Positions 21,160-59,425 of a DNA stretch of 64,000 nucleotides are shown one piece after another. Under the pieces are notes generated by a model, which saw only the letters and a list, made by a program, of their open reading frames with translations, did no database searches and was not told the origin of the DNA. Positions within the stretch are counted from its first letter, which is position 1, and each line of letters starts with the position of its first letter. Made by a program: the position numbers and the translations under genes. This DNA comes from Gnetum montanum (Eukaryota; Plantae; Gnetophyta), in NCBI GenBank assembly GCA_015680685.1, contig MNCI01000721.1:356595-420594 (forward strand), written 5' to 3'.

Positions 21160-22069
21160 TGATGAGACGCAGTTCGCACAAGCCACGATATTGCATCCCC
21201 CGTGATATCGCATCTTCCCCTACGATATTGCGTACATGATATTGTAGTCTGCCGCCATGTCTATAAATAAGAGGTGGCTCTCCCTTATTCGGGATCCCAG
21301 TTTTAGAGTAGCGAAGCTCTGGCAGTTTGATCCCTCCAGAGTTAGATTTTTTCCCGTGTCTGCCCGCAGTGTGGTGAATGTAATTGTACGGTGTCTTTAT
21401 TCGAGTGTTTCGTACTTGGACACGCACATGACCGGCAATAAAGATCGAGATTACTTCATCATTGCAGCATTCACTTAGTTTATTTATTTGTTATTTATTT
21501 AATGTTATTTATTGCTTTCATAGCGTAGTGTGAGTATGACTTAACTACGAGCATCTACGGGTATGTACGGCTAGTTAAGGAATCGGTTACTCATCGTGAT
21601 TAGTCTCTCACCCTTAAACTCCTAGAAGCGGAACGAGTACGACTTGGTTTCAAGCATTTAAGTGTGACTGCTTGGTAGCCTAGTGGTGTAGCTAGGGGGA
21701 TCTATGCTTGGTAGTCCCAGTGGCAGTTGTGCACGAAGTCCAAGATGTGTATGGTTGATCAAGGAATCGATTGCTCATCGCACTTAGGCTAGATTAGATT
21801 TTCTTATCCTTTTCCTCTTAGCTTAGCTTAGTTAGTATTCTTTTCCATTGCCTTCAGGAGTAGCATAGATTAGGAAACATATCATACACCTCATCTAGAC
21901 TAAACCATACGTGACATATGCAAAACTAGTCTAGGTGGGAAGATAGCGAACTGCGACCTAAGGCTAACTATCTAGGTGCGACAACTAGTCCATCTACGGA
22001 GCTCGACCGGATCGCGCGTGCGATGCTTGTTTCGTATGGTTTCGTGTAGGGTTACCTCGCCACTCATCT
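21160..22069 (+). repeat. 5' LTR of D
   Basis: Near-identical to 28265-29174. Palindrome array followed by TATAAATA at 21262. Confidence 0.95.
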
Positions 22070-22201
22070 TTGGTGCCGTTGCCGGGGCTGGTGCTAGTTA
22101 TTTAGATTAGTTATATCATACAAGGTCGCTATAAAGAACTTAACGATATATCTTTTAGAAAATAATAATTATTAAAAAGTCACATAAATTCACACACAAC
22201 A

Positions 22202-23896
22202 ATGCCTCTCCCACAAGATGATAATAATGCCACACTAAGTGAGGAAGTTCATTGGAGAACCAACGAACTATATGACGATGAAGATTGGAGTATACAACCT
22301 GAAGTGGGAGTTTCCTATAAGAATGAACAAAAACAACATCATCGTAACACACGAAAGCCTAAATTACCCAATGACGATGAACCCCCACTGGCCACTACAA
22401 GCTTAACGCAAATACAAGAGACTGTTCGAATCTCACATAGGCATCGTAAAGAGAGTTGTCTACCCAGGCTCGATTTAAATAACTTTCCAAAATTTTCAGG
22501 AGGCTATGACTTAGATCCGCATCAACATTTACTAGCCTTCTACGATGCCTGCACATGGAATAACATTGACAACAGTTGGCAAAAACTAAAGCTCTTTCCT
22601 ATGACGCTCGTTGACCAAGCTAAAGTATGGTAAAGATCATTAAAACCAAATTCAATACTATTCTAGTCAACAATTGTAGAGGTCTTTAACAAAAAATATC
22701 AAACCTACGTAAGAGTGTCAGCCTTGAGGAAATAAATCCAAGGATGGAAACAAGCACAACATGAACCCTTGGACATGGCCTTAGAAAGATATTATGCACT
22801 GTTAAACAACTGTCCAGGCCATGGGTTTTTTGAGGAAAGGCTAATGTATCACATCATTGATGGGCTACATAATGAAACCAGAGAGACCTTAGGAACGTAT
22901 GCCCGAGGTCAACTATACAACCTACGAACCCATCAAATCCAAGAGCTTATTAAGTGGGTAGCAAAAGAAGAAGGAGAATTAGCTACATGGGAGAGTGTTG
23001 AAAAACATCAACGGGACCAAAATATTAACTAAACAAAGGTCCATGATTATAACAAGGAGATATCAAAAAATCTCAAGGTGGAAACATCATCTTTGCCAAT
23101 ACAACAATCGTTAGAAGAAGTCGAGGCAAAGATCAATAAGATGTTGGAATGGATGTATCAAAAGAGTGGAGAATTTATCAACACCATTAGAGATAGAGTT
23201 TTGACAACCTAAGAAGTAGGACGAAATCATAGACATTCGGAAAGAATAAATGAAGGGACTAAGTGCTCAATTGTCAATCCTACATATGAATGCAACATAT
23301 GCCTATACGATCACCCCAAAGGTCAATGCCCAATATTGTTACATCTACATGAGCATTGGGGAAACACGTTACATCCCGAGTTCATACAGAGATACTGTGT
23401 TAGACCACAGTGGCAACAATCCCAGTTGTGGGGGAATCCACCCTTAGACTAGAGGCACCCTTCACATTTTCTGAATCCAAATGCTTATAACGTCCAACAT
23501 CCTATTTCTTCATTTGGGCCACCATACTCTATCTCACCAGAATACCATTCTTCACAAAACCATCAACCCATGCCTCCAACACAACCACCACCTTGTGCAC
23601 CTTACATTCCTCCTAACTTTCAACATTCTCATCCTTTCCCTCCTTCCACAATGCCACCAACTATTCCTAAGGTGTTTGTACCACCGCAACCCACAAACAA
23701 CACTTGTGCTACTACTACTAATAGCAGTGAAGAGCCTCCTCAAAATCAAAGGCGTCCTTTCTTTAAAAATGACCGTAGGAAGGGACAACATAACTCTGAG
23801 GCCACTGCATCTTCCAACCCAGCACAAGTCCAACAATGTGGTGCACCCTTACCTTCGAACCCAATGCCTCATGTAACTTCATCAGGGCCACCAACT
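22202..23896 (+). pseudogene. gag: Athila-type Gag of D with Pro-rich tail
   Basis: FPKFSGGYDLDPHQHL, KLKLFPMTLVDQAKVW and LLNNCPGHGF. Internal stops present. Confidence 0.9.
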
Positions 23897-24982
23897 NTAA
23901 AACTTAAAATTAATTTTGTGTTCATTGTACCCAGAATGAAGAAGGATGGACCAAGAGGGAATGATTAGGGTGTGACATCAAGGGGACTTGTGGATTCTCT
24001 TTGGTGACATCTGTGGGAGTTATCATGCAATATGGTTGTACTAAGATCCTTGTAGATCTAAAGAAAAATGGGAGTAAGAGTAATCAAAAGGGCACTCGAA
24101 ATTAAAAAGCTATTCTAGGGGGTCCCACTAGAAAGACATGCACCCATGCCTGAAGGTTGGCAGCTTCTCTAGATTTAGTAAAGTGAAAAAGAAAAAAAAA
24201 GAGAAAAAGAAGTGCCATAAAACAAAAATTACTCCTCCCTTGTACTACATGACAAGTGATCATATGCCTTGTTGTTATGGTACTCTCACCATTGTTCATC
24301 ATGGGATGAAACAATGTGATGTCACTGTTTAGAGGAATGGACTTGGTCTTGATCTTGGAATGATGGGTTAATGGCACATTAATCATGCTTTACACGCAGG
24401 ATTCACTGTGTCCTGAGTCAGTTACCTCATGTTCCAATCTCTACGATCCCTTTCTGTAGTTCATCTCATCTCACTAATTTGTGTAATTGTAGCTCGTGTC
24501 TCGTGTAACATAAAATTTTCATCTCATTCCGATGATAATTACATGTGTGTGTTTTGTGGAGTTAGTGCAGATTACATTAACCCTTCTAGTGCCCACAGAC
24601 ACTTTAAGTGTGATTACACAAGGGCATTATAGGTTGAAACCTACTTTGGGGAGGACCCACGTGTGTAATTTTGTTGTAATCTTCATTAATTCTCTAGCTA
24701 GAACACACAATTTCTTACCCTCAGCTTAATTTTCATAAATTTCTTTCCCATTTATTAACCCTCAAAACTTTAACGTTCCAATGTACCATTACATTCCCTT
24801 TTCTTCATAACCGCCAAATTTTTAATTGTTAAATTCACATCATTATCATTCAAAGTGCCTCTCGAATTCATGTAATTACCCTTGAATATATTCATCCTTG
24901 TTAATGTCCTCATTTTACACATTAATTTCAAGAAAAATCATTAAACATTCGGTCTTTTTCAAGTGTCTCACTATAGTTTGGA

Positions 24983-25058
24983 CGAGATAACGCGTACGCG
25001 ATATCGTGTCCCACGTGATATCACGGACACGATATCGTGTTCCCTTTTCCTATAAATA
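24983..25058 (+). promoter_or_regulatory. Putative internal promoter of D ORF2: four CGATATCG-type palindromes plus TATA box
   Basis: CGAGATAACGCG, CGCGATATCGTG, CGTGATATCACG and CACGATATCGTG, then TATAAATA at 25051. Same architecture as the D LTR start. Confidence 0.7.
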
Positions 25059-25141
25059 GGAACCCCTACCACAACACTTAGCTTCATTTGATCATTTACG
25101 TGGGGGGAATTTTTGAATTTTTTCTCTGCGACTTGCGATTG

Positions 25142-25797
25142 NNNNNNNNNNNNNNNNNNNNNNNNNNNNNNNNNNNNNNNNNNNNNNNNNNNNNNNNNNN
25201 NNNNNNNNNNNNNNNNNNNNNNNNNNNNNNNNNNNNNNNNNNNNNNNNNNNNNNNNNNNNNNNNNNNNNNNNNNNNNNNNNNNNNNNNNNNNNNNNNNNN
25301 NNNNNNNNNNNNNNNNNNNNNNNNNNNNNNNNNNNNNNNNNNNNNNNNNNNNNNNNNNNNNNNNNNNNNNNNNNNNNNNNNNNNNNNNNNNNNNNNNNNN
25401 NNNNNNNNNNNNNNNNNNNNNNNNNNNNNNNNNNNNNNNNNNNNNNNNNNNNNNNNNNNNNNNNNNNNNNNNNNNNNNNNNNNNNNNNNNNNNNNNNNNN
25501 NNNNNNNNNNNNNNNNNNNNNNNNNNNNNNNNNNNNNNNNNNNNNNNNNNNNNNNNNNNNNNNNNNNNNNNNNNNNNNNNNNNNNNNNNNNNNNNNNNNN
25601 NNNNNNNNNNNNNNNNNNNNNNNNNNNNNNNNNNNNNNNNNNNNNNNNNNNNNNNNNNNNNNNNNNNNNNNNNNNNNNNNNNNNNNNNNNNNNNNNNNNN
25701 NNNNNNNNNNNNNNNNNNNNNNNNNNNNNNNNNNNNNNNNNNNNNNNNNNNNNNNNNNNNNNNNNNNNNNNNNNNNNNNNNNNNNNNNNNNNNNNNN
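25142..25797. other. Assembly gap (N run) hiding the 5' end of D ORF2
   Basis: Run of n characters. Confidence 1.
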
Positions 25798-28093
25798 GCC
25801 CCCATGTTGCTCAGTTATCTACCCAATCGGACCCTGATGTGCAAAAGGATTGGCTAGAAAAGGCTTATGGTAGAGATAAAGCTTTTGGTGAGCTGACAAT
25901 GAAAGAGAGAGTTTATTTCAAAATCAGAACCTATCACCTCTTCCCCACAAAAGGTTTAAAAAGAATATCAACGTATGTGGCAAGAGGATGTGCAGCGTTG
26001 ATGGAAAAGGTTAATGCTAACCTTCCTCATCTATATTTGACGGAGATCCTAAGGTGATTCGAAGAACAAAAGACAGGAAAAATGGCACTCCTTTTTCCCT
26101 GCCTTATCAGAAAACTATGTCGTCGGGCTGGCATTCGGGGATACACAAATGATGTCCTCTAAAAAGCCCAAAATGCTTCTTACACTGAATTGTTAAAGGT
26201 GCCAGCTCTAAGAAAGAGCACTGGTGAAGAGCTAGGACCTGATGAAGAAGATGAAGAAGAAATGGCTGGACCCCTGCAACTCAACTTACAGGACCCAGTC
26301 AACCTCCAGCCATAGGTCCCAGCCAACAACAAGAAGTAGGACCCAGCATGGGCTAGGATCAGCCACCGCCACAAGACTATAGACCGTCGATGAGCCATCT
26401 GAGGGCCATTGCTGAGATGGTTAGTTGGGGAAGTCGTGATGACGCCAATCTCTTCCACGTCATCGATGATGCCAGCCAGCCTACGATCTCAGTAGATCGC
26501 ACACGGGGTGAGTTGTCAATGCAAATAGGAGGAGGGGAAAGCAGATGGTCACAACAGATTTCTGGACACGCGGCATCTTTTCAAGTTCAGTTAGAGATTG
26601 GTGAAGGGGCCACTATGGTGGTCATGCAATACTAGGATGCCGCGGGAGCTGCTGAAGTGGTTGTTGACCACATCAAAGATTCTTTCAATGTACCTGTTGT
26701 GCCACCGGTAGATCTTTTAGGAGCACAAGATGCTCAAACTATTGCCGGAACCTCAATGACTCCTGCGGAACATGAGGATGTATTGGACAGATTGCTTCAA
26801 ACAGGACAAGTTTTGACGTCCTTGTTTGACATTCCCCAGGATGTAACAGCAATTTAGTCAGATCTCATTTCCACAAAGGGAAAGCTGGTCATATCCGAAG
26901 TAGGGGCAGAGCATGCTAAAGCTAAAGTGCAGAAACTACAAGAGTAGCTCTTGGCCTTACAAGTAGCGCAGCAGGATCCTTTGCGATTGGTTCCCGCAGA
27001 CCAGCTAGACAATTTTAAAACTGAGCAACTAACAAAACTAATTGCAGAAAATAAGAAGGTGGTAGAAGAAAAGGAGACGGCCACTTGGGATGCCTCCACA
27101 GCAAAGGCACAAACTCATGCGCATCTTAAGTCATTCAAGGCCTTGCAAGAAGAGAATAAGCAGTTGGTTGCAGATAACCTTCAATTGACTTCTGTGGAGA
27201 AGCAAAAGAATGTTCTCGATGAACACTTTCATCAGTTGCGAGAACAATTCATTCGAGTTAACTGAGATGTAAGCCGTTTAGCCAGAGAAAATCGAACCCT
27301 CTCAATGGAGGAGGTACATGCTATTCGACAAAAGTCAGCCATCGAGATTAGCGTGTGGTAGAATGAGGCTAAACGACATGAGAAGCTAAAGGAGCATTTC
27401 CATGATCAGGTAGGGATGTATAAACAAATCTTGGAGAAGGAGATCCATATGGCCAAAGCTCAAATCAACAACATTAGTGCCTAGTACACTAATTGGGGGG
27501 CCATATTTGACACTTATGCCTACACCCACCAAGCGGAAATTAAGAACCAGGACCTGCAGATCCAGGACTTAACTGAATACATGGAGTTGGCAAACCTTCG
27601 ATATGCCAACTTGGCCATGTTAACAACAGGACGCCCGAGGTCAAAGCTCGAGCAGCAGCTAGCTTCCACCCATATCAAATATGAAGTAGAATTTACAGAA
27701 CAAAAGAAGTTGGCTGAAAAACTAGATGTTGCAAATTCTGAACTCGCAGTGGTAAAAGAAAGCTACCAAGCACAGAAAGATGTGGCAACCAACTTGGCTC
27801 GATAGCTAACAAAACTTCATGAATACAAAGACAAAGCCAGAGCCTTTGAAGAGGAACGACGGGTGTTCGCGGAATGGTACGTCAAAGCTAATCAGATGTT
27901 CCCGCAACTACCCTATCCGTGGGAAGTGCCAACTCCATCAAACATCGGAGCATCAGCATGGATGGCACAAGACCCCCAGACCGAAGAGGAGAAGCTCTAG
28001 GCTATTCTTCAGTGTCATCAACCTTCAAAGCTTGGAGTGCGTGAAAAAGGGAAAGCACCCATGGAGGAGCCACCGCCACCAGGAACTACATGA
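25798..28093 (+). pseudogene. Accessory ORF2 of D (Athila env-like/'putative plant transposon protein' region plus long coiled coil)
   Basis: LLFPCLIRKLCRRAG motif, acidic linker, and ~400 codons of E/K/Q/L-rich sequence. Colinear homolog in F. Confidence 0.8.
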
Positions 28094-28264
28094 GTTCCAC
28101 ATTTTTGTAGTTGTAGCATTTTTTCTCTGTGTTGTGTCTTTCCACACTACGGCATTAGTCCATTTATTTTTTCCAGTTAATAATCCCATACCTATCCACT
28201 ATGTAATCACTGAAGTTTTTTCTCTTGTAACTTAAGGACGAGTTTTTATTCAGTCGTGGGGGTA

Positions 28265-29174
28265 TGATGAGACGCGGTTCGCACAGGCCGCAATATCGCA
28301 GCCGACGCGATATCGCATCTTCCCCTACGATATCGTGTACGCGATATTGTAGTCTTCCACCATGTCTATAAATAAGAGGTGGCTCTCCATTATTTAGGAT
28401 CCCAATTTTAGAGTAGCGAAGCTCTGGCAGTTTGATCCCTCCAGAGTTAGATTTTTTCCCATGTTTACCCACAGTGTGGTGAATGTAATTGTACAGTGTC
28501 TTTATTCGAGTGTGCCGTACTTGGACACGCACATGACCGGCAATAAAGATCGAGATTACTTCATCATTGCAGCATTCACTTAGTTTATTTATTTGTTATT
28601 TATTTAATGTTATTTATTGCTTTCATAGCGTAGTGTGAGTATGACTTGACTACGAGCATCTACAGGTGTGTACGGCCAGTTAAGGAATCGGTTACTCATC
28701 GTGATTAGTCTCTCACCCTTAAACTCCTAGAAGCGGAACGAGTACGACTTGGTTACGAGCATTTAAGTGTGACTGCTTGGTAGCCCAGTGGTGTAGCTAG
28801 GGGGATCTATGCTTGGTAGTCCCAGTGGTAGTTGTGCACGAAGTCCAAGATGTGTACGGTTGATCAAGGAATCGGTTGCTCATCGCACTTAGGCTAGATT
28901 AGATTTTCTTACCCTTTTTCTCTTAGCTTAGCTTAGTTAGTATTCTTTTCCATTGCCTTCAGGAGTAGCATAGATTAGGAAACACATCATACACCTCATC
29001 TAGACTAAACCATACGTGACATATGCAAAACTAGTCTAGGTGGGAAGACAACGAACTGTGACCTAAGGCTAACTATCTAGGTGCTACAACTAGTCCATCT
29101 ACGGAGTTCGACCGGATCGCGCGTGGGACACTCGTTTCGTATGGTTGAGTGTAGGGGTACCTCACCACTCATCA
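28265..29174 (+). repeat. 3' LTR of D
   Basis: TGATGAGACG...CACTCATCA, preceded by the PPT. Confidence 0.95.
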
Positions 29175-29269
29175 ATAAGTAGAGGTAAGATTTTGTTTTT
29201 GTAAGCATCTATTAAGACTATAGTTCCTAGTAGCTTTTCCCAAATACCATCCTATTGAGCCTCTCTCAG

Positions 29270-29470: not shown

Positions 29471-29559
29471 TTTTTCATTCAAAGCCCTTGTTCATCACCA
29501 CTATGAAAGTCAATACCCTCATTATTTTATCTTGTTCTTCTAAATTGACCCCACAAAGA

Positions 29560-34171: not shown

Positions 34172-35405
34172 TGATGAGTGGTGAGGTACCCCTACACTCA
34201 ACCATATGAATAAGAGTGTTTCACGCATGATTCGGTCGAACTCCGCAAATGGACTAGTTGTGGTATCTAGACGGTTACTCATAGATCGTAGTTCATTGTC
34301 TTCCCAGCTGGACTAGTATTAGCTTTTTCACGTATGGTTTAGTCTAGGGTATGGTTTAGTCCAGAGTGAGGTGTATGATGTGTTCCTACACTAATGCTAC
34401 TCCTTGGTATGATGATAAATAATATCAACTAAGCTAGGAGAGAGGGTGAGAAAATCTAAACTAGCCTAAGTGCGATGAGCATCCATTCCTTAATCATTCA
34501 TACACATCCTAGACCTCATGCATGACTACCACTAGGATTACCAAGCGAATGGCCTAAGTAAGCTACTGGGTTACCAAGTAGTCACACTTAAATACTCATG
34601 ATTAAGTCGTACTCATCCCGTGTTACTAGGAGATAAGGGTAGAGAGATGTTAACTAAGAAAGTAGTAAATAACAATAACAATTAAATACATAATTAAGCT
34701 AAATGGATGCTGCAATGGATCTTGATCTTTATTGTCAGTCATGTGGGTGTCCAAGTACATCACACTTGAATAAGGATGCTGTACAATTACAATCATCACA
34801 CTACAGGCATGCACTAGGAGAAAAGGGTTGAGAGGACTAAGTGGCTAACTTACATTAACTATTCATTAATTAAGTTCTAAATGTTCCTAACACCAGTATC
34901 CATTCCCACTTGTTGTACACATCCTGAACCAGTGCAACACTACTAAGATTACCAAACACTAATCATTACTGGGTTACCAAGCGCTACACGCATGCTCAAA
35001 GTGGGAGTACTGAGTGTACTTAACTAAGAGGATCGAAGGTTGAGAGAGAGATTAATTAACTAGGAAACATTAAATATTCAAAAATAATTAATTACTAATT
35101 AGCTTAATATGTATGCTCAAAGGTTTATCATAAAGTTCATCTTTATTGCCGTACACAAATATGTGCTCAGGTACAAATTGCTTGAATAAAGATCCGTTCA
35201 CTCTATGACTCCTACTGTGGGCACAAAGAAATTATTCTAACTCTGGAATGACTAAAATGCAAGAATATGGCTAAGGGTCTAATTCTAACTTCCTTGAACA
35301 AATGGCACCACGTCTTATTTATAGAAGATGAGGCAGGATGTGATATCGTGTATGAAATATCATGTGGCGGATGCGATATTGTGTACATGATATCACGGCT
35401 CATCA
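34172..35405 (-). repeat. 3' LTR of E
   Basis: Aligns with 39399-40574. PPT adjacent. Confidence 0.93.
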
Positions 35406-37389
35406 TACCCCCATGACTGAATGAAAACTTGTCCTCGAGTTCTTTACAAAATATTGGGAAGGTATGAGATTATTGACTTGAATGACAACTAATGGTGAAT
35501 GGAGTGACATGTGAACAAATCAACATTACAATACATGGCAACATTAGTGTTCATGAGCACAAGAGGGAACACTATACACAATTGACATCCAACCTTATTT
35601 GGTAGTTGAGAGAGAAGAGAGAGAAAAGAAAGGGGAAGATGTTTTGTTGTTGATGCCAAGATTGCACCTTCTATTATCCATCCATGAGTGCACCATCAAT
35701 CTTGTTCCTTGCACAACTGTTCTAGGACCAGTCCATCCTAAGTGTTTTCTCTAGGTCTAGTCCATTGTTCTATGATTGCCATCTGTACACACAACACAGT
35801 CACATATGAGCAAGGATAAGTAAATCACAATACAGTTGATACCTTGCTTCAGTGTAAGGTCCGTTGGCTGAGTTGTAATATGGCCAATACGAATTCTAGA
35901 GATATAACACTGGTGACTACCCAAGATGTAGGGGTTAGAAGAAAATTGAAAAAATTGGACCAGGGCCCCCATAACTAAGAGCGATCCTCCGGTAGTGATA
36001 GAATGGAAAAAGATAAGGAATAAGAAAGATGGAGAAAAGAAAACAATGAAAACACTGATAAAATGAATGTTAGAAGTGGGAATGAACAAAACAAATGTTG
36101 ATTGCGGGAATGTTTAAGGGAAAAAAGTTAACTAATGCATCAAATAGGAATGCCAGTGGGTCCTCCCCAAAGCATGCTTATGCCCTTGATGTCCTAACAA
36201 TCCCACATTCAAAGAGTTCATAGGCTCTAGAAATGTCATTAGGAAGCAAAAGTTAAAGTCTTAACCACAAGAATTCACCAAAATGAAAACAATGCATCAA
36301 CCAAAATATAGACTACTGATACAACCGACAATGAGGTGGAAAATGGAGAAAGAATGACGAGGAGAAGAGAATGGAATAGAGTCCCAAGAACAAGGTGGTG
36401 TATAGCCCCTTGTGTATGTATGGTTAATGTGATTGAGTAGATCTCATTCCAAATGTAGCCTTAAACAATCCACATCCAGTGACTTCGCATTAATACACTT
36501 AGTCAATCCATCCACTTGAAGTAACAAGAAAAGAGTCACCACCATTCTGAGGAAATAAGGGAAAAGTAGGAAGTGAGAGAGGGCCTTAGTTAGAGGGAAC
36601 ATGTTTTTTTAGTTTCATAACCAGTGCTTGTAGCCTACATGATTATTTTTTCTAATGGGTGTGCTTTAAATTCTCACTATTTTTTCTTTGTTATTTTTTT
36701 CCATGAGAACCACACTATGCAAAGACTTATTTTTATTGGCTCAGCTTCCCAATAATGGAGCAATGTCAGAATGGTAAAGAAAAGTTAAGAAGAAAACATC
36801 CAAGCACCCAAGAGAATAGCCAACAAAAATGCATCAAATCCCTTTGAAGTTACACCCTTTTCAATCCTTGAGTCCTTTCTTAGTTTGAGAAATGCCTAGT
36901 CACCAATTTGTTAATAGTTTTATTATTAGAGAAGGGGACTACATAGTTCCTAGCCAAGAGAGACCATAGAAATTCATGGATGCATGGATGATGTGGACTC
37001 ATTGCCTGTTATATCAAAAGAATTATACCTTAGTATCAACATTATAACTCAAAGGAAAAAACCAAACATTAGCAATCAATAGAATACAGTTCATACCACC
37101 ATCATGAGCACTTATTAGGTAACAAATCTAACAAAAAAAAAACAACAAAGATAAAAAAAACAAAAACAAACAAAAAAAACAATCACACAAAGAAATGAGA
37201 AAGTATAATGATGTTGCAAAACAAAAAGTTGTAAAATTAAAGAGAATGAAAAATATTTATTAATCCTACTTGTTATTAGAATGAGGGATATCCCCCATAA
37301 CTAAACAGTTGAGCATGGAAAGGATTAATAAATGAAAGATGAGGATCCTTGCATGTTGGAAATATCAAAACTTGGTCATACTTACCCCA

Positions 37390-39257
37390 TTAGAGTTCAC
37401 ACACCTGATTATAGTAAGCATAGTAGGGAAATTTATAAGATGTGGTTCCTGGGTAAAGAGTTGACCCACTATGATACTTGAGACGGTAAGATGGTATGCA
37501 AGGATTGGAATGTTGCCCTCCATGGCTGTATTCATTGGGCCATATGGTTATTGGAGTGTTAATTTGTGGTCCTGATGAGGTGACATGAGGCATTAGGTTT
37601 GAGGAGAAGGATGCATCACAGTGTTGGACTTGTGCTGAATTGGAGAATCCAGTGACCTTGGAACTATGTTGTCCCTTCCTATGGTCATGTCTAAAGAAGG
37701 GATGCTTTCAATGTTGAGGTGGTCTCTCACTACTATTAACAATAGTAGCACAAGTAACGTTCGTGGGTTGTTGCTGTGGTGCAGACACTTTAGGAATAGT
37801 TGGCGGTGATGTAGAAGGAGGAAAATGATGAGAATGTTGAAATTTAGGAGAAGTGTATGGTACACAAAAAGGTGATTGTGTTGAGGACATGGGTTGATAG
37901 TATTAAGGAGAATGATAATGTGGCGAGATAGAGTATGTTGAACCAGTTGGGGAAACAGGATGTTGAACTCGATAAACATTTGGATTCAGATGATACGAAA
38001 GGTGTCTTTAGTTTAGGGACATCTTCCCCCATGACTAGGATTGTTGCCATTGTGATCAAACATAGTATCTCTGTACAAAACCTGGGTGTAACATGCTTCC
38101 CCAATGCTCATATAGATGTAACAAGATTGGGCATTGGCCCTTGGGATGATCGTACAGGAAAATGTTGCATTCATACATGTGATTGGTAGTTGAGCTCTTA
38201 TTTTCTTCATCCTTTCTTTCTAATTTTCTAATGATATTTCGTCCTACTTCTCAGGTTGTCAAAATGCTATCTCCAATAATATTGATATATTCTCCACACT
38301 TTTGATGCATCCATTCTAGCATCTTATTGATCTTTGCCTCTATTTCCTCTAATGATTGTTGTACTAGCAAAAATGGTTCTTCCTCCTTAAGATAGGTTGA
38401 TTTCTCCTTTTGTGATGATGGACCTCTGTTAGGTTGATATTTCAGTCCCATTGATGTTTTTCAACACTCTCCCATCTAGTCATTTCTCCTTCTTCTTTTG
38501 CTACCCACTTAATAAGCTCTTGGAATTGATGGGTTCGTAGTTTGTATAGTTGACCTTGGGCATACATCCCTAGGGTCTCTCTTGTTTCATCACGAAGCCC
38601 ATCAATGATATGGTACATTAGCCTTTCCTCGGAGAACTCATGGCCTGGACAGTTGTTTAATAGTGCATAATAGCTTTCTAAGGCAATGTCCAAGGGTTCA
38701 TGTTGTGCTTGTTTCCACTCTTGGACTTGTTTCCTCAAGGTCGACACTCTTGTGTAGGTTTGATATCTTTTGTTAAAGAGTTCTACCATTGTTGGCCAAC
38801 ATCGTATTGAATTTGGTTTTAATGATCTATACCATACTTTTGCTTGGCCAACGAGTGTCATAGAAAAGCTTGAGTTTTTGCCAATAGTTATCAATGTTGT
38901 TCCATGCACAAGAATCATAGAAGGCTTGTAAATGTTGTTGTGGATCTAAGTCATAGCCTCCTAAGAAATTGAAAAAGTAGTTTAAATCAAGCCTAGGTAG
39001 GCGACTCTCTTTACAATGCCTATGGGAGATTTGAATAGCCTCTTGTAGTGCATTAGGCTTGTAGTGGCCAATAGGGGTTCATCGTTATCGAGTAAGTTAT
39101 GCTTTCATGCTTTGGGATGATGATGCCTTTGTTTATGTTTATAAGAAACCACCACCTCAGATTGTGTACTCCAATCTTCATTATCATATAATTCGTTGGT
39201 TCCCCAATGAATTGCCTCACTAGATATGGAATTATCGTAGTCTTGTAGGAGAGGCAT
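37390..39257 (-). pseudogene. gag: Gag of E
   Basis: Colinear with D gag (MPLLQD..., QAKVWYRSLKPNSI, LLNNCPGHEF, MPHVTSSGP). Confidence 0.9.
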
Positions 39258-39398
39258 GATTGTGCAATTGTGTGTGAATTTGTATGTGACTTTTTGTAAT
39301 TATTTCTTCCTAAACGATGTATTGTTAATTCCTATACAGCGACCTTGTATGATATAACTAATCTAGATAACTAGCACCATCCCCAGCAATGGTGCCAA

Positions 39399-40574
39399 TG
39401 ATGAGTGGCGAGGTACCCCTACACTCAACCATACAAATATGAGTGTTTCATGCACGATCCGGTCGAACTCTGCAGATGAACTAGTTGTGGTATCTAGATG
39501 GTTACTCGTAGATCACAATTCATTGTCTTCCCACCTGGACTAGTATTAGCTTTGTCACGTATGGTTTAGTCTAGAGTGAGATGTATGATGTGTCCCTACA
39601 CTAATGCTACTCCTAGGTATGATGGTAAATAATATCAACTAAATAGGAGAAAGGGTGAGAAAATCTAAACTAGCCTAAGTACGATGAGCATCCATTCCTT
39701 AATCATTCGTACACATCCTGGACCTCATGCATGACTACCATTGGGATTACCAAGCATATGGCCTAGGTATGCTACTGGGTTACCAAGTAGTCACACTTAA
39801 ATGCTCATGATTAAGTCATACTCATCCCGCATTACTAGGAGATAAGGGTAGAGAGATGTTAACTAAGAAAGCAGTAAATAAAAATAAAAATAAAATACAT
39901 AATTAAGCTAAATGGATGCTACAATGATGAAGTAATCTCGATCTTTATTTCCAGTCATGTGCATGTCCAAGTACACCACACTCAAATAAGGATGTCGTAC
40001 AATTACAATCATCACACTACAGGCATGCACTAGGAGAAAAGGGTTGAGGACTAAGTGGCTAACTTACATTAACTATTCATTAATTAAGTTCTAAATGTTC
40101 CTAATACCAATATCTATTCCAACTTGCCATACACATCCTGAACCAGTGCAACGCTGCTGGGATTACCAAACGCTAATCGTTACTGGGTTACAAGCACTAC
40201 ACGTATGCTCAAAGTGGTAGTACTGAGTGTACTTAACTAAGAGGATCAAAGGTTGAGAGAGAGATTAATTAACTAGGAAAGCATTAAACATTCAACAATA
40301 ATTAATTACTAATTAGCCTAATCTGTATGCTGCAAGGTTTATCATAAAGTTCGTCTTTATTATCGTACACAAATGTGTGCTCAGGTACAAATTGCTCAAA
40401 TAAAGATCCGTTCACTCTATGACTCCTACTGTGGGCACATAGAAATTATTCTAACTTTGGAATGACTAAACTACAAGAATCTAGCTAAGGCTCTAATTCT
40501 AACTTCCTTGAACAAAGGGCGCCGCCTCTTATTTATAGAAGATAAGGCAGGATGCGATATCATGTGGCTCATCA
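39399..40574 (-). repeat. 5' LTR of E
   Basis: PBS adjacent on the left; TSD GAATG on the right. Confidence 0.93.
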
Positions 40575-41519: not shown

Positions 41520-41950
41520 TAAAATCACGGTATATCGATTGGTGTGACGTAAATCGATGTGTATAAAAACATACTCCAGGTTATCACTAGAATTATCAAT
41601 TTCTTTGATCTATATGGATATCGTAATATGCAGGGATACCAATTCACATCGATTGAATCAATATGGATTCGTAACAAAGAAATTTTTTCAAATGACTCAC
41701 GTCTGAACAATGTGGCCACGATGAACTTCGATATGTTGATTAATTCGTATCGATTCGTATTGAGCACCCGAATCAAAATTGTTAAGAATAGAATTTTCCC
41801 AAATATTTCATTGTTTATTAGTACAGCCGTGATGAATTTTGATATCCTAGAAGCCTTTTGTCCGTAGTCATCGATTAGTATCGATTCCGCAACATAGCTC
41901 TAACTTAAATTTTATCAATCCTCATTAAAGTAGTGATGGACATCGATATA
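41520..41950. promoter_or_regulatory. CpG-retaining ATCGAT palindrome cluster upstream of the B accessory ORF
   Basis: Seven perfect ATCGAT (~41534, 41553, 41648, 41749, 41870, 41880, 41942) and about 20 CpGs in ~430 bp. Confidence 0.65.
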
Positions 41951-43330: not shown

Positions 43331-43795
43331 TGAAACCTTCTCATTTTTAAGAAGACATGAAAGTGGAGGAAGGATTAGAGGCATGTTCCTTGCAACAATA
43401 TTCATTTTTGTTTTGTGTTGATATGTCTATTGAGCCATTGAAGGGTCATAGGACAAGTGAAATTTTTTTTATTTACTTTTAAAAGATTAGAATCAATGAT
43501 GGAATGTTTAATGTTTGATTTTGATAATGTATATATGTATGTATAGATTGTAGCATGATACAGTTCCATTTCCTTATGAATTAAAAACTTAATGAAAATG
43601 TGAATGTTATATAATTCATGGTATTAGGTTTATATGGGATGCAACTATTTAACTTTTTTTGAGTTTAGTTTAACTAATTTATCAACTAATAAGCTTGGCT
43701 ATGTGATGAAGGTTTAGATTAGATATTAGTTAAAATTTATATGCATTCCCTTGCCTTTGTTGGCTAGGCACTGGCCAACGACTAGTAGGGGGCTA

Positions 43796-44799
43796 TGATA
43801 AACCCCCAATTGTTCTAGTATTCACTAATAGAAATCCCTTTTTTTCACTCTTTTATTGTTTTACTATACTGAAGAGCATCAATTTCTTTTGATGCCCACT
43901 AATATGAGCTAATTACTTTGATAAGTCTATGTTATTGCAGGTTATCATAGGTTCTATCTAAATTGATAAGGATATTGATTAGGATCAAGAGCTTTGACAT
44001 ATGCTAAAAAAGAATGACCTTGCTATACATTATCGAAGCAATATGGATTGATCTAATTTATGTTGATTTTTGTAGTTGTCACAACAAGGATTGATATCAT
44101 CCAAATTATGAGAGCAATTGCCTCACCAAGAATGAAGATATCAATTTGCATTTCTAGCACAATGCAAATCGACTATTGAAGGACATAGATACTACGACAC
44201 AGTTTGATGCTTTATAATCAATCTCCATTGAAGTGTTCAATAAAGATTGATATACCCAAAATAATAACATTTTTCAAATTATAACTAAACCTTTTCTAGT
44301 ATCAATTGGGAAGCTCGATGTCTAATAGGGGGCATTGAATACCAAGGAAAACCCACATCAAATTGAAACTATTTTTTGAAACTTTTCTATTTGTAAAGTG
44401 CTAAAGAAGATTTGTTAAACCTTGTGGTAATTATCAACCATTGGAGTTCATCGTTGGGATGTTGAGGTTGCTGCATTGTAGAAACAACAAGGAAAGGTCA
44501 TGAATTAGGTGAAGTCTCTCTTGTAATCTTCTATTATCTATATCAAGATAACATGATTTTAATTTAGTTAAATCATTTAGTTTTCACTCTTAAACTTGGG
44601 ATTAGAAGTTAGGATGAATTTATGATTTTACTTATGAGTGACAATCATAAGTGTGAGATTTTAATTGGATTTGGATCTAACCATTTATTTTCTTGATGAT
44701 CCCTTTAACTTTAAACCATCCCTCTATAAATACAACTCATGACTTAGTCACAAATGAGGTGACATCTCTACAATGAAGGTAACTTTAGTTGGTTTGCCA
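43796..44799 (+). repeat. B 3' LTR, copy 1
   Basis: Follows the PPT and aligns with 12282-13255. Confidence 0.92.
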
Positions 44800-44806
44800 A
44801 TATATG

Positions 44807-45822
44807 TGATAAACCCTAAATTGTTCTAGTTTTGGCTAATAAAAATCTCTCTATTTTTATCTTTTTTATCATTTAATTATATCAAAAAACATTAATTTCT
44901 TCGATGTCCATCAATATGAACTAATTACTTTGAAAATTCTTTGTTATTATAGGTTATCGCAAGTTCTATCTAAATTGATAAGGATATCGATTGGGATTGG
45001 GAGCTTTGACATATGCTAAAAAAGATGACATCAATATACATCAGTGAATCAATATAAATTGATCCAATTTATGTTGATTTTTGTAGCTAACATGACAAGG
45101 ATTAGTATCATCCAATTATGAGAGTAATTACCTCGCTAGAGAATGAAGATATTGATTTGCACTGTTGGCATAATGCAAATTAGCTATCGAAGGACATAAC
45201 TGCTATGATACAATTCAATGCTTTGTAATCAATCTTCATCAAAGGGTTTGATAAATATTGATATATCCAAACAATAAAATTTTCCAAATTATAATCAAAC
45301 ATTTTCTAGTATACATGGGGATGCTCAATGTCTAATAGCAAGGATCAAATACTAGGAAAGACCTACATCAAATTGAAATCATTTTTTGAAACTTTTATGT
45401 TTGTAGAGTGATAAAGAATATTTTTCAAACCTTGTGATAATTATCAACCATTGGAGTCTATTGTTGGGCTGTTGAAGTTGCTGCATTGTAGAGAAAACAA
45501 GGTATGGTCATGAATTAGGTGAAGTTTCTCTTATAATCTTTGGTTATCTATATTAATATTACATGATTTCAATATTGTTAAATCATTTAATTTTCACTCT
45601 TGAATTTGGGATTAAAAGTTAGCATGAAATTTATGATTTTACTTATGAGTGATAGTCATAAGTATGAGATTTTAATTGGATTTGGATCTAACCATCTATT
45701 GTCTTGATAATCCCTTTAACGTCGAACCATTCCTCCATGGATACAACTTGCAGGTTAGTCATATGCAAGGTGACATCTCTACAATGAAGGTAATTTAGCA
45801 CCAAACTTCGGCTGGCTCATCA
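44807..45822 (+). repeat. B 3' LTR, copy 2
   Basis: TGATAAACCC...GGCTCATCA, full length. Confidence 0.92.
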
Positions 45823-45829
45823 ATTTGTG

Positions 45830-46915
45830 TGATAAACCCCCAATTGTTCTAGTTTTTTCAAATAAAAATCCTTTTCTTTCTATTTTGTTACTATTTTTCT
45901 ATATTGAAGACCATCGATTTCTTTAATTCCCATCAATATGAACTAATTACTTTGAGAAGTCTTTGTTATTGTAGGTCATCGCATGTTCTATCTAAATTGA
46001 TAAGGATATCAATTAAGATAAAGAGATTTGACATATGCTAAAAAATATGACATTGATATACATCACTGAATCAATATAGATCAACCCAATTTATATTGAT
46101 TTTTGTAGCTATCATGACAAGGATTTATATCATCCAATTATGAGAGCAATTGCCTCACCAAAGAATGAAGATATCAATTTGCACTACTAACATGATATAT
46201 TTTAGCTATCAAAGGACATAGCCATAGTGATATAGTTCAATGCTTTGTAATCAATCTTCATCAAAGCATTTGATTGATAAAGATTGATATATTGAAATAA
46301 TAACATTTTCCAATTATAATCAAACCTTTTCCAATATAAATGAAGAAGCATGATGTCTAATAGGAGGGAATGAATACCAAAGGAAACCCACATCAAATTA
46401 AATCCTTGTGCTAAAGAATATTTGTTAATTACAAACCTTGTGCTAATGAACTACCATCAAATTAAAACCTTGTGCTAATCAAGACTTTTCTATTTGTAAA
46501 GTGCTAAAGAAGATTTGTTAAACCTTGTGATAATTATCAACAATTAGAGTTCATTGTTGGACTATTGAAGTTTCTACATTGTAGAAATAGAAAGGCAACA
46601 TCATAGATTAGGTGAAGTCTCTCTTGTAATATTTTATTATCTATGTTAATATTACCTAATTTTAATTTGGTTAAATTAGTTAATTTACACTCTTGAACTT
46701 GGGATTATAATTTAGGGTGAAATTTATGATTTTACATATGAATGATAGACATAAGTATTGGATTTTAATTACATTTGGATCTAACCATTTATTATCTTGA
46801 TGATTTGTTTAACTTTGAATTGTTCCTCCATGGATACAACTTGTGGGGTTTCCATAGATGAGGTGACATATCTACAATGAAGGCAATTTAACATCAAACT
46901 TTGGCTATCTTGTCA
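45830..46915 (+). repeat. B 3' LTR, copy 3
   Basis: TGATAAACCCC...TTGTCA followed by TSD ACATA. Confidence 0.92.
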
Positions 46916-46920
46916 ACATA

Positions 46921-49786: not shown

Positions 49787-49800
49787 AAGGGTGGTAGAGA

Positions 49801-52479: not shown

Positions 52480-52484
52480 CTTCA

Positions 52485-55079: not shown

Positions 55080-55930
55080 TGCTAAGTAGCGAGGTACCCC
55101 TATGCTCAACCATATGAATCACAAGTGTTCATGCACAATCCAATCAAATTTCATATATGGGACTAGTTGTGTCATCTAGATCATTATTCTCTAATTGCAT
55201 TTTTTTGTCTTCCGACTTGTACTAGTGGTAGCTTTGTCATGTATGGTTTAATCCAAAGTGAGGCATATGATGTTATCTAATTCCATGCTACTCTTGATGA
55301 TGATAAAAAGGTAAATTAATTAAGCTGATGGACAATGGAGAATAAAATCTAACTAGCCTATGTGTGATGGATATCTGCCCTTAATCGTCCATACATGTCT
55401 TAAACTTCACGAGACTACTTCTGGGATTGCCAAGTATATGTCACTAGCTATGCCAAACAATACACTTCTGGATTAAGGTGTATGCATTCTGGGATTGCCA
55501 TGTATATGTCACTAGCTATGCTTAACAACAAAAATAGTAAATAGCAATAAATGGAAACATTTAACTAAAGAAAGTAGTAAATAATTAATAATTAAAAGCA
55601 ATAATAGTTTAAGTGGATGCTACAATGATGGAAGTAATCTCAATCTTTATTGCCAATCATGTAACATGTTCAAGTACATCACACTCGAACAAAGGTGTCA
55701 TATGATTACAAACATCACACTGTGGACATGCACTGGGAATAATAACTTTTAGGAAAAGAAACTAAAAACTAAAACTATCTCTCTACTTCATACATTCTAC
55801 CTCCCCCTCAAACCCAGATGAGGTGACGTCAGATATATGACATCACTTTTTGGCTCTAATGTCAAGTATCTAACGTTAGGGCTCTAACATTGCATATCTG
55901 ATGTGAGGGCCTACCAATGATGACTCATCA
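55080..55930 (-). repeat. 3' LTR of F
   Basis: Aligns with 63358-64000 and with the D/E LTRs. Confidence 0.9.
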
Positions 55931-56125
55931 TACCCCCATGACTAAATGAAAACTCATCCTTAAGTTAATAAAATGAGGAAAAAGTTCCTTACAAAATATT
56001 GGGCAGGGATGGGATTATTGACTGACTTAAACAATGAATAAAATAGTTGATTCTTTGCATGTTGTAGTTGTGTAATACAAAATTGGAATGCATTATTACA
56101 AAAAAAAATAACAAAACTGGGAAGC

Positions 56126-58849
56126 TCATGTGGTGTTGGAAGGTGGTGGCTCTTCCATTGGCTACTTCCCATTATTACCAAGCCATTGAAATTTGTAGTG
56201 ATTGAGCAACACCTGCAACTTCTCCTCCCTCATCCTTGGATCATGTACTATCCAAGCTGTTGTTCCAATATGTGCTAGTGCTGGTACATTCCAAGGATAT
56301 GGAAGTTGTAGAACATCTAATTTACCTTTATGTACCAAGCTGCAAACTATCTTCTTTCTTTCTCAAAGGCCCTAGCTTTGTCTCTGAGCTCATGATGATT
56401 TGTCAATCTTTGAGCTATGTTTGAGGCTACATCCTTTTGTCCCTAATTATTGGCTTTGACCATCTCTGATTTTGAGTTTTCCATTTACAACTTTTGCAAA
56501 CCATCCTTTCAATTTTCAAACTCTTTCTCATACAATGCATAGGTGGTTTCCACTTCTTTCTGTAGCACATTTTGGGGCCAACCTATAGAAGGTTGGCATA
56601 TCTAAGGTTAGCCAACACCATGTATTCTTTTAGATCTTCTATTTGTAGATCTTTGTTCTTGACTTTTGCTTGATAGACCAAGGCATAGCTATCCAAAAAT
56701 GGGCTACCACTTAGGATTCTACGTTAACAAGGAGCTAATGTGGGCTTTGGCCATCTGGATTTTTTTTCATTAATTTTCTTGTACATGCCAACTTGGTCAC
56801 AAAATTTGTCTTTTAATTTTTCATGCTTTTCAGCCTTATTTTACCATGTACCAATTTCAATTGCTAATTTTTGATGGATAGCATTAACCTCCTCTATTGA
56901 GAGGATTCTATTCTCTCTAGCGAATCTATTTATGTCTTGGTTGATCTTCACTAGTTGCTCTCTTAACTAGTTGATGCTTTCCTCTAGAATGTTCTTCTAT
57001 TTCTCCACTGTGGTCAACCTAGATTTTTTTGTGGTGAGATACTTATTCTCTTCTTGTACAGTGGTCAATGCCTTTTTGTATGCATGAGATTACACATTAG
57101 TGGTAGAGGCATTCCAAACCACCTTCTCCTTCTCTTAGTAGCTGCTCTCTCCTTTGTTAGCTAGGTTAGCTATTTTTCCTTAAATTGTTCAAGTTGGTTT
57201 AGTGCAACAACATGGACCAAATTCCATCATTCAGCTTGCAAGGAAGCTAGCTCTTCTTGTAATCTTTATATTTCAACTTCTGCATGCTCTACCTTGAGTT
57301 CTATCATGACCAACTTCCCTTTCATAGTGATGAGGTCTAATTGAGCTACAATGACATCATTGGGGATGTCAAATAAGGTAGTCATTACTTGGCCCATCTA
57401 CAACAATCAATCTAGCACATCATCATGCACTACAAGAGTCATTAAAGTCCTAGCCAATACTTGTACATATCTGGTCCCTATTAGATCTATTGAGGGCACA
57501 ATAGGCATGTTGAATGACTCTTTGATGTGAGCAGTGATGACTTCTACTACACTTTCTGCATCCTCATGTTGTAGTACCATGACTATGCCACCTTCTTTAG
57601 TTTCCAACATTACTTGAAAGGATGCAACATTCTCAAAGATCTATCATGATCATTGGGATCCTTCTCCTTCTAACTGTATCAAGATCTCCCACCACATTAG
57701 GTTAGTTAACATTATGAGCTGTACAGCACCATCCATGACTCAGAAGAGGTTATACTTATCCCTACTTTCCAAACTAACTACCTTAACAATCTTCTACAAG
57801 TGGCTCATCGAGGGCCTATAGTCTTGTGATGGTGGTAGCAATGGAGCTTGTGCCTATGGGTACTATTTAGGCTCGTGTTGCATTTTTGTTTGTGGCTCTA
57901 CCTCCTTCTCTACTTGTTCTTCACCAAGATCCTTTCTTGGTGTTGCCAATTTTAGGAGCTTAATGAAGAAGGTATTTTGAGCCTTCCTAGGGATATCATT
58001 GGTCTATCCCAATATTTCAACATGCTTTCACAACTTCCTAATTAAGAAGGAAAATGGAAGTATTGGTCTCCTAGACTTCATTTCTTCACATCATTGTTGG
58101 ATTTTAGTGAAGTAATACTAGGGAAGATTGGCAAAAAAATTACTTATTAAAATGGAACTTCCCCTAGCTACAAAAGTGGAAATTTGATTGAGCCCTTTTA
58201 TGGAAAACAAGTGGTAAGTCTTGATCTTGAAATAGGATTTCTCCTCTAGAGTCATTTCATTGCATGTTTTGTTCTCCTTGCCATACACCCATCTCAACCA
58301 CAATTTCTTGGTCTTGGGGTCAAATTTGGTTGACAAATGAGAAATCTTAGCCCCTTCATTGGGTAGGTTGAGAGCCATAGCAATTACTTTAACTAAATAA
58401 GGGACAATTACCCTACAAATGTTAATGGTGGTACCCTCATCGTTATTATGCCAAAACTGATAGGTTTTTCCTAGGTTCCATTTGCCACTATCTAATAAAA
58501 TGGACCACAATGGGGATAACTTGAGTTGTGTCCAAATTTCTTCTAGAGTGAACTCCTTTAATGGGTTGAAGTTCATCTCCATGATGACTAAAGCCAACGT
58601 GGACTTTTCTAACATGGAAGCAAGGCAATCAAAAGGCAACATGAGACATTGTCCTTACTTGGGAGCTAGTAGTTCTACTGCCTCCCATTAGGCCAATTTC
58701 CTGGTAGCATGAGACTCTTAGTAAATACTAAAGGATTGTACCTCCTACTTAGCATGTTTTGCATGTTCACCCTGTGAACCATAGCCACCATGTGGATGCT
58801 TAGCGATTCTTTATGAGGGTTCACCTTGAGCACCTCTTTCTAGGACCAT
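56126..58849 (-). pseudogene. Accessory ORF2 of F (~900 codons, decayed)
   Basis: YFKIKTYHLFSIKGL, HIKESFNMPIVPSIDL and a coiled coil, matching D ORF2. Confidence 0.82.
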
Positions 58850-59330
58850 TTGCAATCAAGCAAAGGTCAAGTATTACTAAGGATATATTTGTTATCATAA
58901 ATCAGTTTATACCTTACTCATAACCTTAGTTCATTAAGTTCATAATGCATATGATAGCAGAATTAGGAAATTCTCAAGAGAAAAATCCCCAAATATGTGG
59001 CTTATAATAATGGTTATGGGCTCATGGGCTCGAAAAATTTGATTTTTGGCATTAACGTGAGTGATTTTTTATTATAACTTCTAAAGGTTTTAATATTTTT
59101 ACCGTTATGATATCTTCTAGGTGATAGAAAATTTTAGCAATTTAGTGCCCAACAACTAAGCTAAACACTTCAAGTTTAGATGGATTCAAATGACATAGAA
59201 ATTGAAGCGGTAGAGAGAAAAATATTGCAAGTGGAAGATGAGTGCGTAGAGCTCTAACTCATGTGAGAAAATTTCAACAATTCCCCTAGTAGCAAATGAT
59301 GAAAATGAATTTCAAGTGCCATGGGGATCA

Positions 59331-59425
59331 TATATTTATAGTTTTACATGACCCGACGTTAGGTACACAATGTTGGGTATGTGACATCGCATCAAATCCA
59401 ACATCAGGTACACAATGTTGAGGTC
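59331..59425 (-). promoter_or_regulatory. Putative internal promoter of F ORF2: CGACGTCG-derived palindromes plus TATA box
   Basis: CGACGTTA, CAATGTTG, TGACATCG, CAACATCA and CAATGTTG with GTAC linkers. CTATAAATATA on the minus strand at 59331-59341. Confidence 0.62.

What the first reader, a model, noticed from the sequence alone, without database searches (positions are those of the whole stretch)
21160..59425. Concerted switch of a palindromic motif in both the LTR and the accessory-ORF promoter of sister elements D and F: candidate protein/motif self-recognition (anti-silencing) system
Seen: D has about 4 CGATATCG palindromes before the LTR TATA (21185-21245) and about 4 more before a second TATA upstream of ORF2 (24983-25058). 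Its colinear relative F has arrays at the same two positions (55824-55905; 59346-59420), with similar GTAC-type linkers. In F the copies are best explained as decayed CGACGTCG (TGACGTCA, TAACGTTA, CGACGTTA, CAACATCA). So two sites several kb apart carry the same motif within an element and differ between relatives, while ORF2 also diverged. Established: VANDAL DNA transposons encode VANC proteins that bind family-specific short motifs arrayed in their non-coding regions and cause sequence-specific demethylation. The function of Athila 'env-like' ORF2 is unresolved. Inference: ORF2 may be a family-specific DNA-binding activator or anti-silencer acting on its own promoter and the LTR, co-evolving with the motif.
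Basis: partly seen in the sequence, partly recalled or inferred. Interest (0 to 1): 0.88.

Follow-up and report, generated by a model that had tools for sequence, protein, structure and literature searches.

The report
Twin-promoter palindrome switch in plant retrotransposons
Two related plant jumping genes each carry one short DNA palindrome repeated in both their terminal repeat and just ahead of their extra gene, the palindrome's centre differs between the two lineages at both places, and this likely marks a switch read by the element's own extra protein, which has not been tested.

Summary
D and F are pol-less, Athila-like LTR elements (gag plus a 3' ORF2). Each has arrays of an 8-bp palindrome, paired at 14-bp spacing around a GTAC-type linker, in the LTR U3 and before an internal TATA upstream of ORF2. 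All 19 D-type copies (D, E, a fourth LTR) have a TA centre; 0 of 11 F copies do (CG/TG/CA). The internal promoters of D and F are orthologous and are not copies of the LTR promoter, so the centre changed at two separate sites. ORF2 was under purifying selection; in D it has no membrane helix, a basic Transposase_32/ATHILA-type domain and a coiled coil. Corrections: D and F are distant families, F's LTR motif may be TGACGTCA, and no TATA follows it. The layout is already described for Ty1/copia Sireviruses; I found no report for Athila. That ORF2 binds the motif is untested: folding failed, only two lineages are in hand, D's array CpGs are not protected, and array-ORF2-U3 are physically linked. 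Self-recognition about 40%; host factor or structure-driven turnover about 55%.

The parts
21160..29174 (+). Element D: pol-less Athila-like LTR retrotransposon, LTRs 910 bp, 94.2% identical, 5-bp target duplication matching at 4 of 5
21186..21244 (+). D 5' LTR U3 array, 4 TA-centred palindromes, spacings 17, 20, 14; TATAAATA at 21262
22070..22087 (+). D primer-binding site next to the 5' LTR (resembles the tRNA-Asp site of Athila elements; recalled, not tested against tRNAs)
   Evidence: recall
22202..23896 (+). D gag, broken by 6 stops; Retrotrans_gag E 6.9e-09, above cut-off
24985..25058 (+). D internal array (3 pattern copies plus 1 degenerate; spacings 14, 17, 14) and internal TATAAATA at 25051
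25800..28093 (+). D ORF2, visible part (5' end lies in the N gap 25142-25797); broken by stops and a frame change; N-terminal Transposase_32-like domain (E 2.2e-08, 34.6 bits, below the 45-bit cut-off), acidic linker, middle domain, heptad-rich C-terminal half
28265..29174 (+). D 3' LTR with array 28291-28349 and TATAAATA at 28367; polypurine tract directly upstream
55080..64000 (-). Element F: colinear relative of D, cut by the window end inside its 5' LTR; LTRs 85.5% identical over 634 aligned bases
55824..55906 (-). F 3' LTR U3 array, 6 copies with CG/TG/CA centres, spacings 14, 14, 14, 19, 14; no TATA box found after it
56128..58654 (-). F ORF2, heavily decayed (stops, frame changes), about 47-52% identical to D's in protein; true start not determined
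59333..59420 (-). F internal array (5 copies; spacings 14, 17, 14, 14) and internal TATAAATA at 59340
61086..63232 (-). F gag, decayed
34172..40574 (-). Element E: gag-only relative, closer to D (gag 82.5%); TA-centred motif in its LTRs (1 copy in the 5' LTR, 4 in the 3' LTR); no ORF2, no internal array, no internal TATA of this type
1..106 (-). Start of a fourth, D-like LTR with 5 nearly intact TA-centred copies, including a near-perfect 22-bp pair palindrome

Best explanation
The palindrome arrays sit upstream of both promoters of a pol-less Athila-like element and changed their centre at both sites between lineages D and F, and they are likely binding sites for the element family's own ORF2 protein, which would act as an oligomer to switch on its own internal promoter and the LTR. 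Shown: the arrays, their shared 14-bp pair geometry, the lineage-specific centre, orthology of the two internal promoters, purifying selection on ORF2, its basic Transposase_32/ATHILA-type domain and coiled coil. Inferred: that the internal TATA is a working promoter; that ORF2 enters the nucleus and binds DNA; that it reads this motif; that it activates (as foamy-virus Tas does) or strips silencing (as VANC does). ORF2-less elements such as E would use the protein in trans. The CG-to-TA change is the end point of methyl-cytosine deamination on both strands, and a reader that contacts the methyl groups could bind methylated F-type and unmethylated D-type sites alike, which would give a path between the two states.
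For: Same core at two non-homologous promoters within an element and a different core between lineages. Downstream of the TATA, D-internal matches F-internal (z 10.6) but not D's LTR (z 1.8), so the internal promoter is not a copy of the LTR. Pair spacing of 14 bp with a GTAC-type linker is kept in all arrays with more than one copy. ORF2, D vs F: pN 0.25-0.30, pS 0.66-0.86; transversions 7-11% at 0-fold and 33-41% at 4-fold sites in the three main stretches. D ORF2 has no hydrophobic 19-mer above 1.1; N-domain K+R 25 vs D+E 13; heptad-rich stretch. A database relative P0005 lands near Transposase_32 (14% of members) and ATHILA (77%) clusters at score 0.90. E lacks ORF2 and lacks the internal array. 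Analogies: VANC binds family-specific motifs arrayed in non-coding DNA (PMC5735166, passages); Tas binds the internal promoter and LTR (PMC3798896, passages); retrotransposons encode PMD-A proteins and host PMD-C proteins associate with palindromic promoter motifs (bioRxiv 2024.09.27.615353, passages); 5mC/T equivalence (PMC5389525, abstract).
Against: No binding evidence. Both structure predictions failed (pLDDT 39.3 and 32.2), and no link to PMD or VANC families appeared in Pfam, PDB or Atlas searches. The sections I read of a 2026 structure survey link VANC to MAIN but give the Athila domain only a coiled-coil pentamer (PMC13547354 sections 10-11). D's array CpGs are not protected from decay (10 of 31 vs 12 of 77). 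Only two motif states and two ORF2 copies are in hand. F's LTR motif may be TGACGTCA, a classical host bZIP site (recalled), and lacks a following TATA. The N-domain diverged no faster than the rest of ORF2 (pN 0.30 vs 0.29 and 0.25).
Confidence: 0.4

Rival explanations
1. The arrays are sites for host transcription factors (a bZIP C-box type factor for F's ACGT core, another factor for D's GATATC core). Lineages re-wired to a different host factor, and both promoters followed because gag and ORF2 must be expressed in the same cells; ORF2 does something else (scaffold, trafficking, targeting).
For: F's LTR flanks fit TGACGTCA, a canonical bZIP site (recalled). Sirevirus authors read their equivalent motifs as host-factor sites, though they found no common factor (PMC2829016 parts 3-4). 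E keeps LTR arrays with no ORF2. Array length changes fast (E: 1 vs 4 copies between its two LTRs), so a new variant can sweep an array.
Against: A host factor does not change with the element lineage, so both promoters would have to be rebuilt for a new factor while keeping the same 14-bp pair geometry and linker.
Confidence: 0.33
2. What is selected is symmetry (hairpin or cruciform formation, CpG-island character), not a protein site. The centre drifted by methylation-driven deamination and was spread between the two arrays by template switching or gene conversion; linkage of internal array, ORF2 and U3 in the 3' part of the RNA keeps them together.
For: D's arrays fold strongly as single strands (z -3.15 and -4.83). 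CG to TA is the deamination end point. In maize Sireviruses the palindrome region forms hairpins, is an siRNA hotspot and is not conserved in sequence (PMC4728375, passages). Reads join the LTR and internal arrays in alignment, showing enough likeness for mispairing (table 5; most likely mapping ambiguity).
Against: Folding follows trivially from repeated palindromes. Linkers and promoter cores of LTR and internal arrays are not homogenised within D, so conversion would have to be confined to the cores. Fixed 14-bp spacing is not needed for hairpins.
Confidence: 0.2

Closest known systems
Sirevirus (Ty1/copia) repeated motifs, Bousios et al. 2010 (PMC2829016) and 2016 (PMC4728375)
   Same: Family-specific palindromes in multiple copies upstream of the LTR TATA box and upstream of the 3' accessory (env-like) ORF; elements without the ORF lack the internal copies; copies occur in proximal pairs.
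   Different: Those are copia elements, mostly with a CGG-CCG core and 8-32 copies; here the gag, PBS and ORF2 point to the gypsy Athila lineage, the core is GATATC or GACGTC, there are 4-6 copies, an internal TATA is plainly visible, and a paired change between two relatives can be read directly.
VANDAL/VANC anti-silencing system (PMC5735166)
   Same: TE-encoded accessory protein beside family-specific short motifs arrayed in non-coding DNA; coiled-coil region.
   Different: VANDAL is a Mutator-like DNA transposon; VANC21's motif YAGTATTAY is not a palindrome; no DUF1985 match for ORF2; no sign of CpG protection here.
Foamy-virus Tas, internal promoter and LTR circuit (PMC3798896)
   Same: Internal promoter directly upstream of an accessory gene near the 3' LTR, with response elements in both it and U3 that differ between virus species.
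   Different: Animal retrovirus; Tas response elements show little sequence likeness to each other; no homology of Tas to ORF2 was sought or seen.
Athila 3' accessory ORF (Transposase_32 PF20167 / ATHILA PF03078), Retand TRP28 and Ogre PMD accessory ORFs (PMC11728184, PMC6317226, PMC11963269)
   Same: 3' accessory ORF of a non-chromovirus gypsy element with a domain of unknown function; nuclear location or DNA binding has been predicted for relatives.
   Different: In the passages read, none names a target motif; this window supplies a candidate site and a natural specificity pair.

Membership tests
Athila clade (Ty3/gypsy, OTA) | RT/RH/INT phylogeny in the Athila clade, no aRH | not testable with these tools
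   D, E and F carry no pol between gag and ORF2/PPT; classification rests on pol domains (PMC6317226)
Athila clade (Ty3/gypsy, OTA) | Sense 3' extra ORF with ATHILA/Transposase_32 domain | tested here: inconclusive
   Transposase_32 E 2.2e-08 but 34.6 bits, under the 45-bit cut-off, in D; no hit in decayed F; Atlas neighbours of P0005 carry PF20167 (14%) and PF03078 (77%) at 0.90
Athila clade (Ty3/gypsy, OTA) | LTR element with TG..CA ends, 5-bp target duplication, Retrotrans_gag | tested here: met
   (E duplication perfect, D 4 of 5)
Athila clade (Ty3/gypsy, OTA) | tRNA-Asp-type primer-binding site | not tested
   Resemblance recalled; no tRNA set was compared (no tRNA gene in the window)
Envelope-like (membrane) protein | Transmembrane helix | tested here: not met
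   Visible D ORF2 maximum KD19 1.1; F has one 1.87 window whose counterpart in P0005 scores at most 0.91; D's 5' end is in the N gap
Sirevirus | Ty1/copia element with tRNA-Met PBS TATCAGAGC, AGGGGGAG PPT, CGG-CCG motif core | tested here: not met
   PBS, PPT and motif of D/E/F differ from those in PMC2829016
Sirevirus-type layout (works like) | Same palindrome in LTR U3 and before the accessory ORF; internal copies absent when the ORF is absent | tested here: met
   D and F have both arrays; E lacks ORF2 and the internal array; n = 3 elements
VANC anti-silencing proteins | DUF1985 domain or VANC/PMD fold | tested here: inconclusive
   No Pfam match; models too poor for fold comparison
VANC anti-silencing proteins | Sequence-specific binding to the element's own motif | not testable with these tools
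   Needs EMSA, DAP-seq or ChIP
VANC anti-silencing proteins | Loss of methylation at the motif arrays | tested here: inconclusive
   Only an indirect proxy: array CpG decay 10 of 31 vs 12 of 77 elsewhere, no protection
Foamy Tas-type circuit | Internal promoter drives the accessory gene | tested here: inconclusive
   Conserved internal TATA; in two RNA runs sense-side depth rises after it, but one read pile dominates and no start pile at the TATA was listed

The most novel reading that the evidence does not exclude
The Athila-type 'env-like' ORF2 is a sequence-specific DNA-binding regulator that recognises a family-specific palindrome pair in its own promoter and in the LTR, giving plant LTR retrotransposons a self-encoded, family-private on-switch or anti-silencer; D and F are a natural specificity pair in which the site moved from a methylatable CG centre to a methyl-mimicking TA centre, and the Sirevirus layout would be a convergent case of the same logic.
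Probability: 0.35. Interest if true: 0.85.

Novelty: new variant of a known kind. Interest (0 to 1): 0.55.

Why it matters
The function of the 3' accessory ORFs of Athila-type elements, which are abundant in plant genomes, is a long-standing open question. This window offers a concrete candidate target site and two lineages with different cores, so one cross-wise binding or reporter test (protein D or F against array D or F) can decide whether the ORF is a family-specific regulator. A positive result would extend VANC-like or Tas-like self-recognition to plant LTR retrotransposons and would give a testable reading of the Sirevirus motifs as well.

Tried and rejected
No genome is held for the window, so co-variation across many copies could not be tested. 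Scans for further copies found none: metagenome contigs, viral contigs, genome contigs. Protein searches: none at E<=0.001 for D's ORF2 C-part or F's N-domain; two short fragments, P0005 and P0006, from the representative library, each a cluster of one with no name; the alignment search returned only P0006. PDB sequence searches gave nothing significant. AlphaFold models of the N-domain and middle domain were unusable, and the Foldseek run on the first was noise; I did not search with the second. The second Atlas search, excluding PF20167 and PF03078, gave no usable hit; this shows neither absence nor novelty. No indexed holder of the stretch is on record as RNA ('no RNA holder listed'). Variation among genomic copies at F's LTR array was not obtained, so whether that array is CGACGTCG or TGACGTCA stays open. 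Rejected: chance; D's motif as post-insertion decay of F's (TA in 19 of 19 centres while many flanking CpGs survive); F's motif as decayed CGATATCG (0 of 11 TA); the internal promoter as a duplicated LTR; ORF2 as a membrane envelope protein. One search fetched an irrelevant paper by a wrong id; the VANC21 structure paper was not held.
Full report
Setting. The window is AT-rich (34% GC) and CpG-depleted (observed/expected 0.24), and is filled with decayed LTR elements, as in a large methylated plant genome (inference). No genome is held. D spans 21160-29174 (+), with 910-bp LTRs 94.2% identical; E spans 34172-40574 (-), LTRs 91.8%; F runs from 55080 to beyond the window end (-), LTRs 85.5% over the 634 bases that can be compared. 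All three have gag (Retrotrans_gag in D, E 6.9e-09; tblastn to E and F) and no pol between gag and the 3' part. D and F have a long 3' ORF2; E has none. A fourth, D-like LTR starts at 106 (-).

The observation. D has four palindromes before the LTR TATA in each LTR and three plus one degenerate copy before an internal TATA at 25051. F has six copies in its 3' U3 and five before an internal TATA at 59340. Five clusters of at least four degenerate copies in 70 bp occur against none in 100 shuffles (pattern chosen after the fact). The unit is a pair: two 8-mers 14 bp apart around a GTAC-type linker, itself a 22-bp palindrome. Of 16 such pairs found in the window with at most one mismatch, 14 lie in these arrays and 2 elsewhere. 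The centre is TA in 19 of 19 pattern copies of D, E and the fourth LTR, and CG, TG or CA in 11 of 11 copies of F. TG and CA are the usual decay products of CG in F (43 of 87 sites that are CG in D; 7 of 7 changed CG sites in F's LTR pair), whereas TA persists at 98 of 210 sites. The switch is therefore real and older than either insertion. Reads from other family members show the standard D motif at the degenerate internal copy, though LTR reads can map there too.

Corrections. F's internal array fits CG flanks, but its LTR array fits TG..CA flanks better on a crude model; only the ACGT core is safely common to both, and data on other F-type copies were not obtained. No TATA of the D/E type follows F's LTR array. 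D and F are distant: gag 73.5%, spacer 74.4%, ORF2 64-66%, synonymous sites near saturation. D is closer to E (gag 82.5%), which shares its motif.

Two sites, one change. The 75 bases from the internal TATA match between D and F (z 10.6) but not between D's internal and LTR promoters (z 1.8). The internal promoter is thus old, orthologous and not a copy of the LTR, and the cores changed at two separate places. One caution: internal array, ORF2, polypurine tract and U3 are adjacent in the genomic RNA, so their co-variation among subfamilies is expected from linkage and would not by itself show co-evolution (established retroelement biology).

ORF2. Between D and F it evolved under purifying selection (three main stretches: pN 0.25-0.30, pS 0.66-0.86; transversions 7-11% at 0-fold, 33-41% at 4-fold sites; trial alignments in wrong frames are in the same output and were set aside), although the elements lack pol. 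The N-domain matches Transposase_32 below its cut-off in D and not at all in F. A database relative, P0005 (62% identical to F), lies near Transposase_32 and ATHILA clusters. The domain is basic, D's visible ORF2 has no membrane helix, and a heptad-rich stretch follows (simple score). Folding failed twice, and no link to VANC or PMD was obtained.

Expression and abundance. In one DNA run, summed contig depth on D is very high, about 0.5-1.3 million on gag and 0.13-0.30 million on ORF2; the tool warns that this is no copy number. RNA reads come almost wholly from other family members (10 of 3410, 42 of 5403 and 27 of 2445 at 99% or more). In runs X21 and X22 the side that dominates at the LTR R region is low just before the gap (2.9 and 6.0; 0.5 and 3.3) and higher after it (21 and 112; 2.3 and 10), but one pile of 58 molecules dominates X21 and no start pile at the internal TATA is among the 8 of 10 rows shown. 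This is weak support for an internal promoter.

Anti-silencing proxy. CpGs in D's LTR array decayed at 10 of 31 against 12 of 77 elsewhere in the LTR (p 0.066): no protection. This weighs mildly against lasting demethylation, not against transient activation.

What is known. Sireviruses (Ty1/copia) carry family-specific palindromes upstream of the LTR TATA and upstream of the env-like gene, and elements without that gene lack the internal copies; the authors suggested host factors but found no common one (PMC2829016, parts 1-4 of 7 read). In maize these regions form hairpins, attract siRNAs and turn over in sequence (PMC4728375, passages). VANC proteins bind family-specific motifs in tandem arrays (PMC5735166, passages). 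Host PMD-C proteins associate with promoter motifs, one palindromic, resemble VANC in predicted structure, and PMD-A is retrotransposon-encoded (bioRxiv 2024.09.27.615353, passages). A 2026 survey models VANC and the Athila domain as coiled-coil pentamers and links VANC to MAIN; it does not, in the parts read, link the Athila domain to either (PMC13547354, abstract, passages, sections 10-11; its supplementary figures, not seen, may bear on this). Sunflower Athila ORF carries Transposase_32 and a predicted nuclear signal (PMC11728184, passages); Retand TRP28 is predicted to bind DNA (PMC11963269, passages); accessory domains by lineage are listed in PMC6317226 (passages). Foamy Tas binds its internal promoter, then U3 (PMC3798896, passages; lead taken from earlier finding e1-9358293, which reports a similar layout in an animal element that I did not check). 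5-methylcytosine and thymine can be read alike (PMC5389525, abstract). Searches listed no paper that reports this twin-array layout or a target motif for an Athila accessory ORF; subscription journals are mostly outside the library.

Verdict. The feature is real. As architecture it is a gypsy-lineage counterpart of the Sirevirus layout, so a new variant of a known kind. What is added is a visible internal TATA, a fixed pair geometry and a paired change of the core between two lineages with a conserved ORF2. I put ORF2 self-recognition at 0.40, host-factor re-wiring at 0.33 and symmetry-driven turnover at 0.20. Interest 0.55, because a cross-wise binding test would address the open question of Athila ORF2 function directly.

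Noticed in passing
window 34172-40574 (-): Element E has one motif copy in its 5' LTR and four in its 3' LTR, so array length changed within a single insertion.
   Followed up: partly
window 55750-55823 (-): No TATA box of the D/E type follows F's 3' LTR array; the region looks shortened against D and E.
   Followed up: partly
window 41520-41950: CpG-rich patch with nine ATCGAT/ATACGA-like short motifs, perhaps the subterminal repeats of another transposon.
   Followed up: no
window 43794-46916 and 12276-13260: About 1-kb unit repeated three to four times in tandem at 78-82% identity, with a further copy 31.5 kb away.
   Followed up: no
window 26363-26962 (+) and 57236-57835 (-): ORF2 middle region aligns without gaps at 50% identity over 200 residues and matches no Pfam family or database protein; a possible undescribed domain.
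   Followed up: partly
window 23900-24679 (+) vs 59716-60470 (-): The non-coding spacer after gag is better conserved between D and F (74%) than ORF2 (64-66%), hinting at a constrained RNA or DNA element, or a separate history for the ORF2 block.
   Followed up: no
window 21455: In RNA run X22, 61 reads from family members leave the LTR with a poly(A)-like loose end just after AATAAA, marking the end of R.
   Followed up: no
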